Shown: positions 10,869 to 20,710, counted from the first letter of the stretch. The stretch: DNA of 64,000 nucleotides from Escherichia coli (GCF_003790525.1 NZ_CP033635.1), one strand, 5' to 3'. The notes: generated by a model from the sequence alone, not told the origin. Numbers and translations: made by a program.

Positions 10869-12101
10869 TTACGGACGGGCAGCCAGAAGACACAGTTGAA
10901 ATGCCACATTATACGATTCCTCAAAGGATTTTAGAGGTAGAAACTCAAATATGGAGTGAAAATTATGTGCGCCAGTAAAAAAATTAGGCGTCAAAATTCC
11001 TCTGGCTGACAGAACTGCACCATCAGTTCCACCACGCATTGGTATCGGTTTTGGTGTAATTCCCAGCATATTCATGGACTCAAAGAGTAGATCTACAGCA
11101 CGTCTGTCTTTGTTTAAAGCATTACTAATATTGCTGTAGATATCAGTGATCGTGAACTCAACCCTGGCTGTCGGATATCGGGAAGATATTTTATGTGCAA
11201 CAGCAGCAATCTGTTGTTTTCTGCGAGTAAAACTGGATTGATCAAAATCACGTATACTTGCCTGTAACACAGCATTACTTTGTCCGGCATTCATACCATT
11301 GAACCAGATATAACCTTCACGACCAGCGGTATTCTCCGGTGTTTCAAGGCGATCAAATTCATTTATGTAATCACAGGCCATCAGTAATGGATTAACTAAT
11401 ACATTTTTTGCAGACATCGGATGTGCCGTTACACCAGTAAAACGGATCTCTGCAGATGCAGCGTTAAAGTTTTCATAAACAATCTCTCCTGACTCGCAAC
11501 AGTCAATTGTCCAGGCAAAGTCAACAGAAAAACGTTGTAAATCAAGAGACTTAGCTCCACGCAAGCCTGTTTCCTCATCAGGGACAAATGCAACCACAAT
11601 ATCACCATGCTGATGTTCTGAGGTCAGATTCTCCAGCATAGTCATCACTACCGAAACAGCGGCTTTATTATCAGCCCCTAGTACACTTGTTCCGTCGCTG
11701 AAAATAATGTCTTCCCCCCGATATTTCAGAATTTCGGGATGCTCTTTGACCCGCAGCCAGATATCTTTTTCTGCATTGAGACACAAATCTTCACCTGTAA
11801 ATTTCAAAATTTGTGGATGAATATCCGGAGATAAACCAACATCTACTGTATCAATATGAGTAATGAAACCAATTCGAGGCGCACCCGGAATATTACCTTT
11901 TTTCACCGCGGTGACCGTTGCATGCTCATCAACAATAATATCGTCCATATCCAGCAACGCCAGTTCATCTGCAAGTGTCCGGGCCATCTCATACTGTCCT
12001 TGTGTGGACGGAAGGGATGCTGAATTTGGGTCACTCTGGCTACTGATTGAAAGGTAGCGAAAGAAACGTTGGATTAATTGACTGCTTAATGGGGAGTACA
12101 T
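10869..12101 (-). CDS. peptidase T-like tripeptidase (M20B family)
   Basis: PepT-like motifs (LGADNKAAV, DEETGLRGAK, NFNAASAEI, RGGTDGA); start taken at MYSPLSS with AAGGAA SD. Confidence 0.75.
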   Translation of the reverse strand: MYSPLSSQLIQRFFRYLSISSQSDPNSASLPSTQGQYEMARTLADELALLDMDDIIVDEHATVTAVKKGNIPGAPRIGFITHIDTVDVGLSPDIHPQILKFTGEDLCLNAEKDIWLRVKEHPEILKYRGEDIIFSDGTSVLGADNKAAVSVVMTMLENLTSEHQHGDIVVAFVPDEETGLRGAKSLDLQRFSVDFAWTIDCCESGEIVYENFNAASAEIRFTGVTAHPMSAKNVLVNPLLMACDYINEFDRLETPENTAGREGYIWFNGMNAGQSNAVLQASIRDFDQSSFTRRKQQIAAVAHKISSRYPTARVEFTITDIYSNISNALNKDRRAVDLLFESMNMLGITPKPIPMRGGTDGAVLSARGILTPNFFTGAHNFHSIFEFLPLKSFEESYNVAFQLCLLAARP

Positions 12102-12219
12102 AACTTTTCCTTCTTTTTTTGTGTTATGAGGTGAATGCAATACGCATTTAATGTTATTTATTAATCTGTAAACGATGCGGATTCATCACTCCATATTGTC
12201 AAAGAAAACAGGAAAAGTC

Positions 12220-13812
12220 ATGGTAAGAAGATTAGCGACTATTGCACCGTTACTGGTTGCGTTGGGTGTAAGCTCAACTGTTTATGCAAAGACACTGGTT
12301 TACTGCTCTGAAGGCTCACCTGAGAGTTTTAATCCTCAGCTTTATACTTCGGGGACCAGTGTTGATGCAAGTGCTGTTCCGGTGTATAACCGACTGGTTG
12401 ATTTTAAGGTGGGCACTACTGTGCTGGTTCCCAGCCTGGCTGAACGATGGGAAATCAGTGGTGACGGGAAAGCATATACTTTTTATCTGCGTAAAGGCGT
12501 TAAATTTCACAGTAATAAATACTTTACTCCAACGCGAGAGTTTAATGCTGATGATGTTATTTTTTCATTTATGCGCCAGAAGGATCCTGGTCATCCATAT
12601 CACCAAGTTTCTGGTGGGACGTATTCTAATTTTGAAAGTCTGGAATTCAGTTCACTCATAACCAGTATCGACAGAGTTGATGATCATACAGTTCGCTTTA
12701 ATCTTTCACATCCGGAGGCTCCCTTTATTGCTGATTTAGCCTGGTATTTTGCTTCTGTTTTATCCGCTGAATATGCTGATGCTATGCTTAAAGCCGGAAC
12801 ACCTGAACGGGTTGATATGAATCCAATTGGGACAGGGCCATATCAACTCAAACAATATCAGAAAGATTCGCGTATTTTATTTACGGCTTTTGATGATTAC
12901 TGGGAGGGGAAAGCAAAACTGGAACGCATTGTTTTCAGTATCACACCAGATTCCTCAGTGCGTCTGGCTAAACTGGAGAAAAATGAGTGTCAGGTGATGC
13001 CGTTTCCTAATCCATCAGATCTTTCCAGAATCAAAAAAAATCCGGCTCTTAAATTGATGAGTAAAGCCGGACTTAATACAGGTTTTCTTGCTTTCAATAC
13101 GCAAAAAGCTCCTCTGGATAATGTAAAAGTTCGTCAGGCACTGGCAACAGCAATTAATAAAAATGCCATTATAGATGCTGTATTTCAGGGGACTGGTAGT
13201 GCTGCTAAAAATCTGCTGCCACCAGGAGTATGGAGTGCAGACAGTGAATTGAAAGATTATGAATATGATCCAGAAAAAGCCAGATCATTGCTAAAAGAAG
13301 CTGGTTTTGATAATGGAATGACTATTGATCTTTGGGCGATGCCAGTTCAACGCCCTTATAACCCAAACGCTAAACGAATGGCCGAAATGATTCAGGCTGA
13401 CTGGGCAAAAGTGGGAGTAAAAACAAACATTATCACTTTTGAATGGGGGGAATATCTTAATCGTATAAAGAACGGAGAGCATCAGGCTGCGTTGATGGGA
13501 TGGACAACCGCAACAGGTGATCCTGATAATTTTTTTGGTCCACTCTTTACCTGCACTTCTGCTAACGGTGGTTCTAATTCCGCGAAGTGGTGCTACAAAC
13601 CTTTCGATGAAATTATTTCTCAGGCTAAAGTAATAACTGATCAGGAAAAACGAGCAGTGCTCTATAAAAAAGCACAACAGATGATGCATGAACAAATACC
13701 AGCGGTGATGATTGCACATTCCACCATTTTTGAACCAATACGCAATGAAGTCACAGGTTATGAAATAGATCCATTTGGTAAACATATTTTTTATCAGGTT
13801 GATATAAAATAA
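12220..13812 (+). CDS. DppA-like periplasmic dipeptide (and possibly heme)-binding ABC substrate-binding protein, orphan
   Basis: About 530 aa after signal peptide; long collinear similarity to E. coli DppA (KTLVYCSEGSPE.FNPQL..., WAMPVQRPYNPNA.RMAEMIQADWAKVGV); no permease or ATPase genes follow. Confidence 0.8.
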   Translation: MVRRLATIAPLLVALGVSSTVYAKTLVYCSEGSPESFNPQLYTSGTSVDASAVPVYNRLVDFKVGTTVLVPSLAERWEISGDGKAYTFYLRKGVKFHSNKYFTPTREFNADDVIFSFMRQKDPGHPYHQVSGGTYSNFESLEFSSLITSIDRVDDHTVRFNLSHPEAPFIADLAWYFASVLSAEYADAMLKAGTPERVDMNPIGTGPYQLKQYQKDSRILFTAFDDYWEGKAKLERIVFSITPDSSVRLAKLEKNECQVMPFPNPSDLSRIKKNPALKLMSKAGLNTGFLAFNTQKAPLDNVKVRQALATAINKNAIIDAVFQGTGSAAKNLLPPGVWSADSELKDYEYDPEKARSLLKEAGFDNGMTIDLWAMPVQRPYNPNAKRMAEMIQADWAKVGVKTNIITFEWGEYLNRIKNGEHQAALMGWTTATGDPDNFFGPLFTCTSANGGSNSAKWCYKPFDEIISQAKVITDQEKRAVLYKKAQQMMHEQIPAVMIAHSTIFEPIRNEVTGYEIDPFGKHIFYQVDIK

Positions 13813-14910
13813 CAGGTGTAAGCTCCGTCTGTGACGTCTGGTGATAGTTGTCCAGTCTGGTAACAATAGCGTCCATCTATACAGATGGACGCGAATGATG
13901 AATTTTCAGACAACAAGATATTGATGGTTTTCGTTTTTATCTGCCCGACGCATTACGTCTAATATTCGAAGAACAATTATCTGTCTAGTTAATCGCTCAT
14001 CAGTCAGGGCTAAGTCATTTCACCATCACGATTTTTTTAACTATTACCCGAATGAGCAAAGTGAGGATGATGCCATGACGCAGGTCAGAGCGACCAGCAC
14101 CGCGACAATTAATAAAACAGGAAGGCTGCGCGTTTCAGACAGTGATGTCAACATAAACTATCAGTAACGTTAACTGCATCAGAAGCACAAGTATGGATTT
14201 TACCATTGTGCAGAACGACTTGCCCATGGGAAATAATAAATTTAATAAAAAAAGAAAGATATGGTTGCAAATATTATAATATCCCGGGCAACGATCCTGA
14301 TTTTCTCAATACATGTTTTCCTCACGTATTTGTTCTTCAAAGAGCAATCAGCATCTGTTACTGAATGGTTGTTATGAGCATTAAAAGAATAACGGGAAGT
14401 CGGTGACGTGGGGATATGTCGCGTGTTGAATTATACAAAGGGCCGACATCTTCATGGTGTCGGCCAGTCATAAGTGCCAGATATTAACCGTCAGTTACAG
14501 GGGGTAACCGCAGGAAACAGGCTACGCTCCGGGTAACGGGTTATCAATAGTTATTTATTTACTTAAATTCAGTGATTTTGTTCTGTATCATTGCGCTTTC
14601 TTACTGGTATAAATAATGATCGATTGATTTTCGCATGAGCATCAGAATTTGTCGTAATTTGAGGTCCAGGTGCTGTACATACAGGAATATGGTTCTGTCA
14701 GCGGTAGATTGCCGTTGCTGAGCAGAATGTTCAGGCTGGATGGTGAGATTACAGCTGATATTGCTGTGCTGATGGCAGAATGGTAAACGTTAAGTGCGCG
14801 TTCCCGGCAATGAAGGCAAACACGTCATGACAGCAACGCAAAATAAACCAGGAACGCGCGGTATTTTTTATCCCGAATGAAAGCGATTGTCCATATCCGG
14901 TAATAAATAT

Positions 14911-15162
14911 TCAGCAGTATGTAAAGTGCGGTTTGCCCGGTTCTGGTGGAAGGGGCTCCAGATACACATCATCAACAAACACACACGGGAATTTATCCAC
15001 CGGGCAGCCTGCACGGTCAGCCATATCCTGCAGCGTCACACTGTGCTTCGCGACATCAATAAACACAACATCCGGTTCCATTTCATCGGGGATTCGGGTT
15101 GCGTGATGCATAATGCGATGGACTGAAGGGCAGTGACGGTAACCAAAAACACGTATACGCAT
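14911..15162 (-). CDS. small hypothetical protein (83 aa), possibly thioredoxin/glutaredoxin-fold
   Basis: Strong AGGAGG SD 7 nt upstream of ATG; fold assignment speculative (MRIRVFGYRHCP...). Confidence 0.4.
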   Translation of the reverse strand: MRIRVFGYRHCPSVHRIMHHATRIPDEMEPDVVFIDVAKHSVTLQDMADRAGCPVDKFPCVFVDDVYLEPLPPEPGKPHFTYC

Positions 15163-15485
15163 GATGTACCTCCTGGTTGCAGGGTGACTGTATCATCAGA
15201 CCTTATCATGCGTTTAAAAAATGTACTGTAACTCACATTTTTTGGTAAGACGGTGGCTATTACTGCAAATGATGATGGCTCAGTTTTTATTTTTTATTCA
15301 ATATTTTCATGTTGTTATTGTTATTTTGTTTGTTCATACCCTGTGTGGTTCCCCGTTCTTTACATTCAGGCACTTCCGTTTCCTTTAACGTTTTCGTTAC
15401 TCTCTGAAGCTTGTGGTATCTGTGATTACTGATGCCTGCCGTCATACTGCGAAATACCGGATATCAGACCGTGGAGGATTCTGCC

Positions 15486-16058
15486 ATGCAACGCTGGTTT
15501 CTGCCTTTTCTTGCGTCTCTGTTGCTGTTACAGGGTTGTGTTGCCGCTGCGCTGGTCGGTACGGCTGCTGTGGGTACTAAAGTGTCAGTGGATCCCCGAA
15601 GTGCGGGAACGCAGATTGATGATGAAATTCTGGAAGCAAGGGTCAGCCGTGCGCTGTCGAAGGACTCACAACTCAGGGGTGATGCGCGAATTATCGTCAC
15701 AGCATACCAGGGCACTGTACTGCTGACAGGGCAGGTACCAGACCGTAGTGCAGGTGAAAGAGCCCGTCAGATTGCAGATGGTGTTGAGGGGACTGTGCAG
15801 GTATGGAATGAAATAAGGACGGGAAAACCACTCCGTGCTGATAAAACAACCACTGATGCCTGGCTGACCACAAAAATCCGGGCACAGTTACTGAAGAGCA
15901 GCCGGGTGAAACTGTCAGATGTAAAGGTACTGACGGAGAATGGTGAAGTCTTTCTTATGGGGAGAGTTACAGAGAAGGAAGGACAGGCTGCTGCAGATAT
16001 CGCCAGTCGCGTGGCGGGGGTGAAACACGTCATCACCGCATTCAGTTATATACGATGA
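15486..16058 (+). CDS. BON-domain lipoprotein, paralogue of DolP (YraP)
   Basis: Lipobox LLLLQGC, two BON-like segments, strong resemblance to YraP (LQGCVAAA.VGTAAVGTK...DPRS.GTQ.DD); GGAGGA SD before the internal ATG at 15486. Confidence 0.75.
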   Translation: MQRWFLPFLASLLLLQGCVAAALVGTAAVGTKVSVDPRSAGTQIDDEILEARVSRALSKDSQLRGDARIIVTAYQGTVLLTGQVPDRSAGERARQIADGVEGTVQVWNEIRTGKPLRADKTTTDAWLTTKIRAQLLKSSRVKLSDVKVLTENGEVFLMGRVTEKEGQAAADIASRVAGVKHVITAFSYIR

Positions 16059-16105
16059 GTATGGAGAGCCCGTTCGTTCGGGCTCTGTATTTATCTTCCC
16101 CCCGT

Positions 16106-16459
16106 TCATCCCTGGCGTTGCCAGGTGGCACTTCCGTTCTTACAGTCAACGCGCACACGATACTGAATATCTGCTTTCTTTCCACGGGCAGTGAGATGCA
16201 CAGTGATGACATTATCACCTTTATTTACCGGCTCACGAAGATTCACCCAGACAACGGGACGCTGCTGACCGAGAATTTCCTGGTCATCTTTCCACTGAAA
16301 CACCTGTTTCTGGAGATAGTCCCGTTTGACGCTGGCTGCAACAGTCGATGCTTCCTGTCCTTCACATCGTGGAAAACTGACGGTTCTGTTTTTTTCAGCG
16401 GCCAGTGATGATGCACAGATACCGAAGATGAGCAGAATGGAAGAGAGTGCTTTGTTCAT
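16106..16459 (-). CDS. secreted hypothetical protein (117 aa, signal peptide)
   Basis: N-terminal signal peptide MNKALSSILLIFGICASSLAA; GGAGGA SD upstream. Confidence 0.45.
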   Translation of the reverse strand: MNKALSSILLIFGICASSLAAEKNRTVSFPRCEGQEASTVAASVKRDYLQKQVFQWKDDQEILGQQRPVVWVNLREPVNKGDNVITVHLTARGKKADIQYRVRVDCKNGSATWQRQG

Positions 16460-16773
16460 TTACAGGTCCTCCACAGGGGATAGTTTCATTGAGGAGTTAC
16501 ATCTTAACAACATAAAACAGCATTTCCTGTAACAATCCTCACATAACTTCTTATCCCGTCACTTCCCGTTTCACATGGGCAGCATAGCCTGTTTTTTAAC
16601 CCGTTTTTCAGTCATTTCCATAAACAAATCTTCGCTGACGATAAATCTTTTTTCTGTTTAACGATCGATTTTGTCGATCGATATGATATGTATAATTCAT
16701 TTTACCAATGAGAAATCCATCTTAAAATTGGACAAATTCATATGTCTGAAGGAAACATCAGGAGAGGTGGATT

Positions 16774-17523
16774 GTGAAAAAGTTACTGGCACTCACTGCG
16801 GTAGCTGCGCTTACCGGCACGTTTTCAACGCTGGCGCTGGCAGATGCGGATAAAACCGGGTTCTATATCACGGGTAAGGCTGGTGCATCTGTTATCACTC
16901 AGGATAATCAGCGTTTTAGTCAGGACTTTGGTGATGTTGTTTATAAGTATAAAGGCGGTGACAAGAGCGATACGGTTTTTGGCGCCGGCCTTGCGGTGGG
17001 ATATGACTTTTATCAGCACTACAATGTACCTGTTCGCACGGAAGTTGAATTCTATGGTCGCGGCTCTGCGAATTCCCGCTATACACTGGATACATGGGAG
17101 TCCCCGTCTGGAGATAATGGTTGGAAGGAAGACACACAAAACAGGCTCAGCGTGAATACCCTGATGGTGAGCACGTATTATGATTTCAGAAACAGCAGTG
17201 CTTTCACTCCGTGGGTATCAGCCGGACTGGGTTATGCGCGGGTACATCATAAGGCAACATACACCGATACCACCTGGCATAAATCAGGTGAAGTAAGTGA
17301 TGCTTCTTCATTACATTACTCGGGATATGATAACAATTTCGCATGGAGCCTTGGTGTTGGCGTGAAATATGATGTCACCCCGGATTTCAGTCTTGACCTT
17401 GCTTATCGCTATCTTGATGCAGGTGATTCAACCCTGACGTATAAAGACGGGCAGGATACATATAAATCCTCTGTTGATGTCAGAAGTAACGAATTTACGT
17501 TAGGCGCTACATACAGCTTCTGA
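16774..17523 (+). CDS. outer-membrane beta-barrel protein (249 aa)
   Basis: Signal peptide ending ALA-DA, alternating aromatic/hydrophilic strands, C-terminal ...TYSF; GTG start with GGAGAGG SD. Confidence 0.6.
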   Translation: MKKLLALTAVAALTGTFSTLALADADKTGFYITGKAGASVITQDNQRFSQDFGDVVYKYKGGDKSDTVFGAGLAVGYDFYQHYNVPVRTEVEFYGRGSANSRYTLDTWESPSGDNGWKEDTQNRLSVNTLMVSTYYDFRNSSAFTPWVSAGLGYARVHHKATYTDTTWHKSGEVSDASSLHYSGYDNNFAWSLGVGVKYDVTPDFSLDLAYRYLDAGDSTLTYKDGQDTYKSSVDVRSNEFTLGATYSF

Positions 17524-19516: not shown

Positions 19517-20710
19517 TTATTTCGTTTTTACGTTTTTCTCCATAAGTGAATCAATGTAATCAGCGTACCACTGCATCATTTCACGACGTCCATCCAGATA
19601 TTGCGCATGGTTATAAGTGCCACGCATGACGTTTTTATCAACATGAGCAAGCTGGAGTTCAATCCAGGCTGAGCTGAAATCATGGTCATGGAGAATGGTG
19701 CTGAAGGTATGACGAAATCCGTGGGCTGTTGTCAGGGCATGCCAGCCTGACTGCTCAAGGAATTCATTGATACACTTGCGGTTTCGCGGGAGATCTTTTC
19801 TGAATGCACCAGGAATAATAAAGGCGGAATTACGCGATTCAGTGCGTGTTTTTATCTCCTCCAGTAACGCCAGTACCTGGCGTGAAAGCGGCACAACGTG
19901 CGGTCGTCGCATTTTCATTCTTTCTTTCGGAATAACCCACAGGGCCTCCGTGAAATTAATTTCGTCCCAGGTTGCCAGTCGCAGTTCTCCGGTGCGAACA
20001 GCAGTCAGAACCAGCATCTGCGTTGCCAGCGACATCAGATTTTCGGATGCCGTTATCTGATGCATGAAAGCTCCCATCTGTTCTTCAGAAAGCGTCCTGC
20101 GCTGTTGTTTTTCAGGAGGAAGCAGTACCCCGCTGAGTGTCGATGCCGGATTAACGGTAGCACGTCCTGTTGCTATGGCATAATCAAAAACCTGCGCACA
20201 GAGCTGGCGTGTTTTACGCAGTGCTTCAAGTTTTCCCTGTTCTTCTATAGTCCTCAGAACGTTCAGTATTTCCATGGGGCGGATCCCGGTCACAGGACGG
20301 TTTCCAAGAGCAGGGAAAACATGATTTTCAAGTCTTGCACGCTGATCTGCCTGGTAACCTGTTGTCCATCGACGTGCCATATGGGTAAGCAGCTCCTCTG
20401 CAATGGTGCGAAATGTGCAGGCCATACTTTCCCTGATGGCAAGTTTTCGCGCCTGTTTTTCATACGACGGATCTTTACCTTCAGCCAGAAGTTTCCGTGC
20501 TTCATCCCGCTTCTGACGAGCCTGAGCCAGTGATATGTCAGGATAGACACCAATCACCAGTTTCTTTTCCTTACCGGCAAAGCGGTACTTCAGATTCCAG
20601 TAACGGGCACCGGATTTTTTGACAAGAAGATAAAGGCCCTGACCGTCAGAAAGTTTGTAATCCCTGTCAGCAGGTTTAGCCGACTCAATTTGTCGAACAG
20701 TAAGTGGCAT
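19517..20710 (-). CDS. tyrosine recombinase, P4-type phage/island integrase (397 aa)
   Basis: Full-length ORF with typical P4-family N-terminus (MPLTVRQIESAKPADRDYKLSDGQGLYLLV) and catalytic C-terminal region (HGFRHTFST...). Confidence 0.9.
   Translation of the reverse strand: MPLTVRQIESAKPADRDYKLSDGQGLYLLVKKSGARYWNLKYRFAGKEKKLVIGVYPDISLAQARQKRDEARKLLAEGKDPSYEKQARKLAIRESMACTFRTIAEELLTHMARRWTTGYQADQRARLENHVFPALGNRPVTGIRPMEILNVLRTIEEQGKLEALRKTRQLCAQVFDYAIATGRATVNPASTLSGVLLPPEKQQRRTLSEEQMGAFMHQITASENLMSLATQMLVLTAVRTGELRLATWDEINFTEALWVIPKERMKMRRPHVVPLSRQVLALLEEIKTRTESRNSAFIIPGAFRKDLPRNRKCINEFLEQSGWHALTTAHGFRHTFSTILHDHDFSSAWIELQLAHVDKNVMRGTYNHAQYLDGRREMMQWYADYIDSLMEKNVKTK

What the first reader, a model, noticed from the sequence alone, without database searches (positions are those of the whole stretch)
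13813..14910. About 1.1 kb gap without long ORFs downstream of the DppA paralogue, containing an antisense pair of small ORFs and a hairpin
No ORF of 60 codons or more exists on either strand. Within it, a 36-codon minus-strand ORF (14044-14154) encodes a hydrophobic peptide (MLTSLSETRSLPVLLIVAVLVALTCVMASSSLCSFG) but has a weak SD. It is almost completely overlapped in antisense by a 30-codon plus-strand ORF (14075-14167) with a good GAGGA SD. A GC-rich hairpin (GGCCGACA-loop-TGTCGGCC, about 14440-14465) also lies here. Small hydrophobic peptide plus antisense transcript is the layout of type I toxin-antitoxin loci, but this could equally be decayed sequence.
Basis: inference. Interest (0 to 1): 0.35.

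Follow-up and report, generated by a model that had tools for sequence, protein, structure and literature searches.

The report
Decayed island DNA, not a toxin–antitoxin
The 1.1-kb gene-free gap is a patchwork of a broken insertion-sequence end, orphan non-coding DNA and leftover transcription terminators inside a rearranged E. coli genomic island, and the two small overlapping reading frames in it show no sign of being real genes.

Summary
The type I toxin-antitoxin reading fails every test I could run.

The gap is five joined pieces:
- 13817-~14050: left end of an IS66-family element, with a frameshifted 5' part of tnpA.
- ~14042-14430: orphan non-coding DNA that holds the ORF pair.
- 14441-14624: a 185-bp unit that starts with the hairpin.
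- 14641-14791: a second orphan piece.
- 14792-14910: the spacer and terminator of a DoxX gene that other versions of this island still carry.

The orphan module occurs in 9 of 5,426 complete E. coli genomes. I found it in no plasmid, phage, viral contig or GTDB species representative.

In the two diverged versions (~80% identity), the 36-aa frame stops after 14 or 16 codons. The start of the 30-aa frame is CTG or ATC. All six frames are equally conserved.

No Pfam, NCBIfam or Rfam family matches, and none of 1.84 billion protein representatives is a real relative.

A diverged second copy indicates the hairpin is a leftward (minus-strand) intrinsic terminator.

Ordinary; low interest.

The parts
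13817..13836 (+). Outer end (terminal inverted-repeat region, TGTAAGCTCCGTCTGTGACG) of an IS66-family insertion sequence. It starts 5 nt after the stop codon of the DppA-like gene.
   Evidence: Aligns with the left ends of many annotated IS66-like elements at 75-82%. It is unique in the window at up to 3 mismatches. A second IS66 left end lies at 6330-6543 (-) at 74%.
13869..13892 (.). Subterminal palindrome of the IS66 left end (GCGTCCATCT-ATAC-AGATGGACGC).
   Evidence: Flagged as terminator-like on the minus strand. It is conserved in the JML285 IS66 copy, so it belongs to the IS, not to a local gene.
13898..14050 (+). 5' fragment (about 45-50 codons) of IS66-family tnpA. It is a pseudogene, with a 2-nt deletion, an in-frame stop, and truncation.
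   Evidence: tblastn shows TnpA residues 7-44 at 74% identity with an internal stop at 13914-14027. No tnpB, tnpC or right end follows.
14051..14430 (.). Orphan non-coding segment (segment C). It holds the small-ORF pair. It is 75-85% identical, with indels, to the two other known variants.
   Evidence: Alignments and identity profile are. Six-frame Pfam search finds nothing. tblastx shows all six frames equally conserved. There is no significant similarity to the rest of IS66 tnpA.
14044..14154 (-). Best read as a chance ORF.
   Evidence: The frame is broken in relatives, giving 14 and 16 codons, and there is no SD. No family or homologue was found.
14075..14167 (+). 30-codon antisense ORF with a GAGGA. 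Best read as a chance ORF.
   Evidence: The start codon is CTG in the AR_0085 type and ATC in the 23CRST013 type, and the frames differ. No family was found.
14135..14227 (-). 30-codon ORF. It is the truncated counterpart of a 54-61-aa ORF (MDKSFCT...) that PGAP calls 'hypothetical protein' in strain 23CRST013.
   Evidence: The 61-aa version has no homologue in the 5.8-billion-cluster protein collection.
14441..14465 (-). GC-rich hairpin. It is probably a relict Rho-independent terminator for leftward (minus-strand) transcription.
   Evidence: Folds are. In the diverged second copy in strain 23CRST013, the two stem substitutions give G-U pairs on the minus strand but A-C mismatches on the plus strand. 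That copy is followed by TTTTTTAT on the minus strand and is called a terminator by the scan. It folds at -20.2 kcal/mol on minus against -8.9 on plus.
14441..14624 (-). 185-bp unit: terminator hairpin, invariant 24-mer CAGTTACAGGGGGTAACCGCAGGA (14492-14515), and an AT-rich stretch. It is present twice, 695 bp apart, in the 23CRST013-type island.
   Evidence: Local alignment z = 30 against shuffles. Direct repeat and alignment A3. It is 95-100% identical across the three variants, which matches the island baseline.
14641..14791 (.). Second orphan segment (segment E), shared only with strain GF60 and the 23CRST013 type. It contains a 38-codon ORF, 14670-14786 (+).
   Evidence: Homology to the AR_0085 type ends at 14641. 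All substitutions in the ORF between the window and GF60 change the amino acid, and 23CRST013 is frameshifted. No family was found.
14792..14910 (+). Spacer between a (lost) DoxX gene and the convergent glutaredoxin-like gene. It includes the DoxX terminator relic: inverted repeat 14796-14807/14848-14859 and T-run 14864-14869.
   Evidence: In strains CM2 and AR_0085, homology (96-98%) resumes exactly at 14792, 49 nt after an intact or frameshifted DoxX gene. The inverted repeat is and the fold.

Best explanation
The gap is a rearrangement scar in a mosaic E. coli genomic island. The island has an integrase at 19517-20710 next to lptG. The gap is not a functional locus.

Reading left to right:
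1. An IS66-family element inserted 5 nt past the stop of the DppA-like gene and was later truncated. Only its inverted-repeat end, its subterminal palindrome and about 50 frameshifted codons of tnpA remain.
2. About 380 bp of orphan, unconstrained DNA follows. The 36-aa and 30-aa ORFs sit here and are chance open frames in AT-rich sequence.
3. Next is a 185-bp unit whose hairpin is a leftover leftward terminator.
4. About 150 bp of further orphan DNA follows.
5. Last is the spacer and terminator of a DoxX gene. Together with sitABCD, that gene occupies this position in other versions of the island and has been lost here.

What is shown: the identity of pieces 1 and 5, the breakpoints, and the lack of frame conservation. 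What is inferred: the order of events, and that nothing in pieces 2-4 is expressed to any purpose.
For: - IS66 end: 413 E. coli records and 135 plasmids match only window 13817-14038, under annotated IS66 tnpA genes. Alignment to the JML285 copy shows the terminal repeat, the palindrome, the tnpA start and a 2-nt deletion. tblastn gives 74% identity over TnpA residues 7-44 with an in-frame stop.
- DoxX relic: homology to CM2 and AR_0085 resumes exactly at 14792, after an intact or frameshifted DoxX gene. AR_0085 carries about 5.5 kb, including sitABCD, between the equivalents of 14641 and 14792.
- Distribution: the middle module is in 9 of 5,426 complete E. coli genomes. It is in no plasmid and no phage. 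Its two best-conserved 20-mers are absent from 100,044 GTDB species representatives, and one was also absent from IMG/VR. The two metagenome contigs found are the same variants.
- No coding signal: frames are broken in relatives. Six-frame Pfam search is empty. No NCBIfam or Pfam hit was found for any small ORF. All six tblastx frames are equally conserved. Every substitution in the 38-aa ORF is non-synonymous.
- No RNA family: the Rfam E-value scan of 12000-17000 gives nothing credible.
- Mosaic ancestry: between the window and AR_0085, third codon positions are 95-99% identical over most of the island, but the integrase gene is only 82% identical overall. Segment C is about 80% identical.
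Against: - The 36-aa peptide is the most hydrophobic of 144 comparable ORFs in the window, and its neighbour ranks third. That is more than expected for random ORFs, although T-rich strands produce this.
- A promoter-like site on the minus strand (14226 to 14197, TGGGCA-18-TAAAAT) could drive a transcript across the 36-aa ORF.
- The 185-bp unit is duplicated and contains a 24-nt block identical between copies that are otherwise 80% alike. This could reflect function.
- No expression data could be consulted.
- Only three sequence variants exist, so conservation tests have little power.
Confidence: 0.8

Rival explanations
1. Type I toxin-antitoxin locus. The 36-aa hydrophobic peptide (14154 to 14044, minus strand) would be a membrane toxin. 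A plus-strand RNA overlapping it, carrying the 30-codon ORF, would be the antisense antitoxin.
For: - The peptide meets the generic protein criteria used by Fozo et al. 2010 (PMC2887945). It is under 70 aa. Fourteen of 15 residues in VLLIVAVLVALTCVM are hydrophobic. The C-terminus SSSLCSFG is Ser-rich with one Phe.
- It has the top hydropathy window of 144 ORFs.
- It is 757 nt from the upstream gene.
- A promoter-like site lies at 14226 to 14197 on the minus strand.
Against: - There is no SD before the ATG.
- The frame is interrupted after 14 or 16 codons in both diverged relatives, and the start of the antisense ORF is lost in both.
- The -10 of the promoter-like site is CAAAAT in the relatives. 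One promoter-like site is fewer than the 4.8 expected in shuffles.
- No plus-strand promoter or terminator brackets an antisense RNA.
- Nothing in NCBIfam, Pfam or Rfam matched, so no known type I toxin or antitoxin-RNA family in those libraries was hit.
- The only hit among 1.84 billion representatives is an artefact of a 13-fold repeat.
- There is no tandem duplication of the ORF.
- It lies 232 nt from the downstream gene, under the 250 nt used by Fozo et al.
Confidence: 0.04
2. The 185-bp unit (14441-14624) is a functional non-coding element read on the minus strand. It could be a small RNA, or a shared 3'-UTR module, that ends at the hairpin terminator. It also carries an invariant inner hairpin, CAGUUAC-CCCCU-GUAACUG.
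For: - There are two copies in direct orientation in the 23CRST013-type island.
- The stem substitutions in copy 2 are G-U-compatible only on the minus strand. Copy 2 has a canonical U-tract and is called a terminator.
- A 24-nt block is identical between copies that are 80% alike.
- The window copy is nearly invariant across three island variants.
Against: - No promoter-like site lies upstream on the minus strand.
- The near-invariance equals the island's baseline divergence of 1-5%, so it needs no selection.
- The consensus fold gains almost nothing from covariation: the term is +2.5 on plus and -0.87 on minus, and most other predicted pairs are broken in copy 2.
- The whole-unit fold z-score is only about -2.2 to -2.4.
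- There is no Rfam match.
- It is absent from all GTDB species representatives.
- A terminator plus 3' flank of a lost gene explains it equally well.
Confidence: 0.1
3. Segment C (14051-14430) is the wreck of a protein-coding gene of an unknown family. One candidate is a small membrane protein on the minus strand, of which MDKSFCT...LLIVYV and the 36-aa ORF are frame-shifted pieces.
For: - Relatives have a longer 54-61-aa ORF starting at the position homologous to 14227, and PGAP annotates one as a hypothetical protein.
- Two adjacent minus-strand ORFs are among the three most hydrophobic in the window.
Against: - No homologue of the 61-aa ORF exists in the 5.8-billion-cluster collection.
- Six-frame Pfam search is empty.
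- All six frames are equally conserved.
- The three variants have three different frame structures.
Confidence: 0.15

Closest known systems
IS66-family insertion sequences (ISEc8 / ISEc22-like elements with a 224-aa HTH-type TnpA)
   Same: Window 13817-~14050 has the GTAAGC-type terminal repeat, the subterminal palindrome, and the tnpA start and first ~50 codons. It is 75-82% identical in DNA to many annotated copies.
   Different: It is only a fragment. tnpA is frameshifted and truncated, and there is no tnpB, tnpC or right inverted repeat. It cannot transpose.
Type I toxin-antitoxin loci of enterobacteria (hok/sok, ldr/rdl, ibs/sib, tisB/istR, shoB/ohsC, zorO/orzO, dinQ/agrB)
   Same: A short ORF encoding a single hydrophobic helix, overlapped by sequence on the opposite strand, in a long gene-free region.
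   Different: There is no sequence or RNA-family match. There is no SD, no conserved frame, no defined antisense transcription unit and no tandem copies.
Rho-independent (intrinsic) terminators
   Same: The hairpin at 14441-14465 read on the minus strand is a GC-rich 8-10-bp stem followed by CUUUGUAU. Its diverged copy has a full U6 tract. The inverted repeat at 14796-14859 followed by T6 is the terminator of the DoxX gene present in related islands.
   Different: The window copy of the hairpin has a weak U-tract and was not called by the scan. The DoxX relic has a 40-nt loop and no gene left to terminate.

Membership tests
Type I toxin-antitoxin system | Toxin ORF under ~70 aa with a predicted transmembrane stretch (Fozo et al. 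2010: at least 10 of 15 residues from I, V, L, F, C, M, A) | tested here: met
   VLLIVAVLVALTCVM has 14 of 15 hydrophobic residues. It is the highest 19-aa hydropathy window of 144 ORFs. Criteria are from PMC2887945.
Type I toxin-antitoxin system | C-terminus rich in polar, charged or aromatic residues | tested here: inconclusive
   The C-terminus is SSSLCSFG, with four Ser and one Phe but no charged residue. It is nominally polar but unlike known enterobacterial toxins.
Type I toxin-antitoxin system | Translatable toxin mRNA: a ribosome-binding site and a promoter for the toxin strand | tested here: not met
   The 20 nt before the ATG are GTTAACGTTACTGATAGTTT, with no SD. There is one weak promoter-like site, against 4.8 expected by chance. 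Its -10 is CAAAAT in relatives.
Type I toxin-antitoxin system | A discrete antisense or trans-acting antitoxin RNA with its own promoter and terminator | tested here: not met
   No plus-strand promoter-like or terminator-like site lies between 13990 and 14300. No antitoxin RNA family is hit in Rfam at E up to 1. Transcription itself cannot be tested here.
Type I toxin-antitoxin system | Toxin reading frame conserved among related loci | tested here: not met
   The frame stops after 14 codons (AR_0085 type) and 16 codons (23CRST013 type). It is identical only in the near-clonal GF60. All six frames are equally conserved.
Type I toxin-antitoxin system | Homology to a known toxin family | tested here: not met
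   No NCBIfam or Pfam hit at E up to 10. phmmer against 1.84 billion representatives gave one artefactual hit to a 13-fold repeat protein.
Type I toxin-antitoxin system | Toxicity on overexpression, neutralised by the RNA | not testable with these tools
   This needs an experiment.
IS66-family insertion sequence | Terminal inverted repeat of the GTAAGC type at the element end | tested here: met
   TGTAAGCTCCGTCTGTGACG at 13817-13836 aligns with the left end of annotated IS66-like elements.
IS66-family insertion sequence | tnpA (accessory HTH protein) following the left end | tested here: met
   74% identity to TnpA residues 7-44, but with a 2-nt deletion, an in-frame stop and truncation at about codon 50.
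IS66-family insertion sequence | tnpB, tnpC (DDE transposase) and a right inverted repeat, i.e. an intact element | tested here: not met
   No such ORFs or matching repeat follow. It is therefore filed as a remnant, not as an IS copy.
Rho-independent terminator (hairpin 14441-14465, minus strand) | GC-rich stem-loop followed directly by a U-tract on the transcribed strand | tested here: inconclusive
   The stem is strong. The window copy's tail, CUUUGUAU, was not called by the scan. The diverged copy in L002, with tail UUUUUUAU, was called on the minus strand, and its substitutions keep pairing only on that strand.

The most novel reading that the evidence does not exclude
The 185-bp unit (14441-14624) may be an undescribed, island-borne small RNA or 3'-end module transcribed leftward. 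It would consist of the terminator hairpin, the invariant CAGUUAC-CCCCU-GUAACUG stem-loop and an AU-rich linker, and it has been duplicated within this rare island family. Less likely, the 36-aa hydrophobic ORF is a very young, lineage-specific toxic peptide.
Probability: 0.07. Interest if true: 0.35.

Novelty: already known. Interest (0 to 1): 0.08.

Why it matters
It matters mainly as a negative result. [quoted passage not shown] It illustrates that a small hydrophobic ORF with an antisense ORF in AT-rich island DNA is not evidence for a toxin unless the frame is kept in diverged relatives. For annotation, 13817-14050 should be marked as an IS66-family remnant. The 'hypothetical proteins' that PGAP calls in the homologous region of other strains are probably not genes.

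Tried and rejected
- Hok-like toxin. The peptide's 'SLC' and the overlapping upstream ORF recalled hok/mok. It was rejected because there is no NCBIfam, Pfam or Rfam hit and the frames are not conserved.
- Segment C as the continuation of IS66 tnpA. By eye some motifs seemed to align. Local DNA alignment against shuffles gave z between -1.1 and +0.2, and tblastn found nothing beyond residue ~58.
- The core unit as a second, diverged IS66 end. An eyeballed match of TACGCTCCG...ATAGTT to the inverted repeat was not significant, with z from -1.5 to 0.4.
- An 'ultra-conserved' core at 14430-14535 as a strongly constrained element. It looked striking against the ~80% flank. The island baseline between the same strains is 95-99% at third codon positions. 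So the core is ordinary, and the flank is the old-divergence patch, like the 82% integrase.
- Wider homologues for a covariation test. The 20-mers TTACAGGGGGTAACCGCAGG and CCTCACGTATTTGTTCTTCA were absent from GTDB representatives, and the first was absent from IMG/VR. Two metagenome contigs were the same variants. Plasmids and phages had no match.
- The 38-aa plus-strand ORF (14670-14786) with an extended -10-like TGGTATAAAT and a downstream terminator as a small gene. It was rejected because all substitutions against GF60 are non-synonymous, 23CRST013 is frameshifted, and the terminator belongs to the lost DoxX gene.
- Paralogy between the bodies upstream of the two unit copies. tblastx found none.

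Full report
**Observation.** The stretch 13813-14910 has no ORF of 60 codons or more lying inside it. Two longer ORFs touch its edges, 13291-13866 (-) and 14887-15126 (+). Both are antisense shadows of the flanking genes. The 36-codon minus-strand ORF (14044-14154) and the 30-codon plus-strand ORF (14075-14167) exist exactly as quoted, and so does the GAGGA 7 nt before the ATG. The hairpin is at 14441-14465 and is strong: -19.8 kcal/mol on plus and -15.8 on minus, with no shuffle out of 200 folding as well. The 36-aa ORF has no Shine-Dalgarno at all; its upstream 20 nt are GTTAACGTTACTGATAGTTT. The gap holds about 25 ORFs of 25 aa or more, so an antisense pair is expected by chance. The only unusual feature is hydrophobicity, where the 36-aa ORF ranks 1 of 144 comparable ORFs in the window.

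**Context.** The window is an E. coli-type genomic island beside lptG, lptF and pepA, with a tyrosine integrase at 19517-20710. Upstream of the gap are a peptidase T-like gene and a DppA-like substrate-binding protein. Downstream, on the minus strand, is an 83-aa GrxA-like glutaredoxin. It is followed by island paralogues of dolP and yebF, an outer-membrane protein and an EcsC protein. Only one of 5,426 complete E. coli genomes, strain GF60, has the same arrangement, at 96.9-99.9% identity.

**Anatomy of the gap.** Comparison with other genomes splits it into five pieces.

1. *13817-~14050, IS66-family left end.* Hundreds of E. coli chromosomes and plasmids match only this part, under annotated 'IS66-like element accessory protein TnpA' genes.
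   - Alignment with a copy from strain JML285 shows the terminal repeat (TGTAAGCTCCG...), the subterminal palindrome at 13869-13892, the tnpA start at 13898 and a 2-nt deletion.
   - tblastn gives 74% identity to TnpA residues 7-44, with an in-frame stop.
   - Nothing of tnpB, tnpC or a right end follows.
2. *~14042-14430, segment C.* This piece carries the ORF pair.
3. *14441-14624, a 185-bp unit.* It begins with the hairpin.
4. *14641-14791, segment E.*
5. *14792-14910, DoxX spacer.* In strains CM2 and AR_0085, homology at 96-98% resumes exactly at 14792. That point is 49 nt after an intact (CM2) or frameshifted (AR_0085) DoxX gene, at the first base of an inverted repeat followed by T6. This piece is therefore the DoxX terminator and the spacer to the convergent glutaredoxin-like gene. 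AR_0085 has about 5.5 kb, including sitABCD, between the equivalents of 14641 and 14792.

**Distribution of pieces 2-4.**
- They occur in 9 of 5,426 complete E. coli genomes, in three sequence variants and three different contexts.
- They are in no plasmid and no phage.
- The best-conserved 20-mers are absent from 100,044 GTDB species representatives, and one was also absent from IMG/VR.
- The two metagenome contigs that carry it are the already known variants.
- The breakpoints differ between contexts: 13992 or 14042 on the left, and 14641 or 14835 on the right. This is what repeated rearrangement of island DNA produces.

**Tests of the toxin-antitoxin idea.**
- *Frames.* In the two diverged variants, about 80% identical in this part, the 36-aa frame stops after 14 and 16 codons. 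The ATG of the 30-aa frame is CTG or ATC. A different minus-strand ORF, starting at the homologue of 14227, is 54-61 aa there but 30 aa here. Three variants thus have three frame structures.
- *Coding signal.* tblastx shows all six frames equally conserved, the signature of non-coding DNA.
- *Families.* No small ORF, and no six-frame translation of the gap, hits Pfam or NCBIfam at E up to 10. The Rfam E-value scan finds no antitoxin RNA or any other credible family.
- *Homologues.* phmmer of the 36-aa peptide against 1.84 billion representatives gave one hit. It is a 1,367-aa protein with 13 copies of a weakly similar 24-residue repeat, so it is an artefact of summed scores. The 61-aa ORF of the AR_0085 type has no homologue either.
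- *Signals.* The promoter scan finds one site on the minus strand (14226 to 14197), against 4.8 expected in shuffles. Its -10 is CAAAAT in the relatives. There is no plus-strand promoter or terminator to define an antisense RNA.
- *Generic features.* The peptide does meet the generic features used by Fozo et al. 2010 (PMC2887945): it is short, has one hydrophobic helix and has a polar C-terminus. These features are not specific.

**The apparently ultra-conserved core.** In a four-way alignment, 14430-14535 is nearly invariant while the left flank is about 80% identical. I first took this for strong constraint. The same strains are 95-99% identical at third codon positions and 90-97% in intergenic DNA across most of the island. 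The integrase gene, by contrast, is only 82% identical. So the core is at the island's baseline, and segment C, like the integrase, is a patch of older divergence. This is mosaicism, not selection.

**The hairpin.** The 23CRST013-type island has a second, 80% identical copy of the 185-bp unit 695 bp upstream.
- In that copy, the two stem substitutions give G-U pairs when read on the minus strand and A-C mismatches on the plus strand. One further pair changed on both sides.
- The copy folds at -20.2 kcal/mol on minus against -8.9 on plus.
- It is followed by TTTTTTAT on the minus strand and is called a terminator by the scan.
- The window copy has the weaker tail CUUUGUAU and was not called.

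I infer that the hairpin is a relict intrinsic terminator for leftward transcription. In the present arrangement it could at most stop read-through from the glutaredoxin-like gene. Whether the whole unit is more than a terminator with its flank is open: there is no promoter, almost no covariation support, and only four sequences.

**Other small ORFs.** The 38-codon plus-strand ORF (14670-14786) looked tidy, with an extended -10-like TGGTATAAAT upstream and a terminator downstream. Every substitution against GF60 changes the amino acid, 23CRST013 is frameshifted, and the terminator is the DoxX one.

**Verdict.** This is ordinary for a rearranged genomic island. The residual uncertainty is the lack of expression data and the very small number of sequence variants.

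Noticed in passing
window 16660-16694: Two CGATCGAT motifs (each with a Dam GATC site) lie 8 bp apart, directly upstream of a TATAAT. They sit in the divergent region between the yebF-like gene and the outer-membrane-protein gene. Weak, sub-threshold Rfam 'IS102 RNA' hits fall here (E 0.079 and 0.9). This could be a methylation-dependent switch.
   Followed up: partly
window 14911-15162 (-): An 83-aa GrxA-like glutaredoxin (NCBIfam NF008401 at E 4e-8, below the cut-off) carries CPSV where GrxA has the CPYC active site, so it would have a single-cysteine site. RefSeq calls it 'hypothetical' or 'thioredoxin domain-containing'.
   Followed up: partly
window 10869-13812: The peptidase T-like and DppA-like gene pair is present in only 1 of 5,426 complete E. 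coli genomes (GF60). The binding protein has no permease or ATPase genes next to it. The IS66 stump starts 5 nt after its stop codon.
   Followed up: partly
window 14641-14792, compared with L005 12903-18381 and L008 6480-9000: Other versions of this island carry sitABCD (complete or truncated) and a DoxX gene at this position. The window lineage has lost them.
   Followed up: yes
window 19517-20710, compared with L005 23104-24297: The integrase is only 82% identical (65% at third codon positions) to that of strain AR_0085, while the rest of the island is 95-99% identical. The AR_0085 island sits next to ulaD instead of lptG. This suggests an integrase and attachment-site swap on a shared cargo.
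   Followed up: partly
window 15432-17523: The island carries extra copies of the core-genome genes dolP and yebF plus an outer-membrane protein gene, as a conserved block in all island variants.
   Followed up: no
L002 4506-4595: A 90-bp non-coding piece just upstream of the second copy of the 185-bp unit matches 655 E. coli genomes at 75-80% identity. Most matches are unannotated, and one of two contexts examined was beside an integrative-element gene (inovirus Gp2 family).
   Followed up: partly
window 6330-6543 (-): A second IS66-family left end is 74% identical to the stump in the gap. It belongs to another IS66-type element further left in the island.
   Followed up: no
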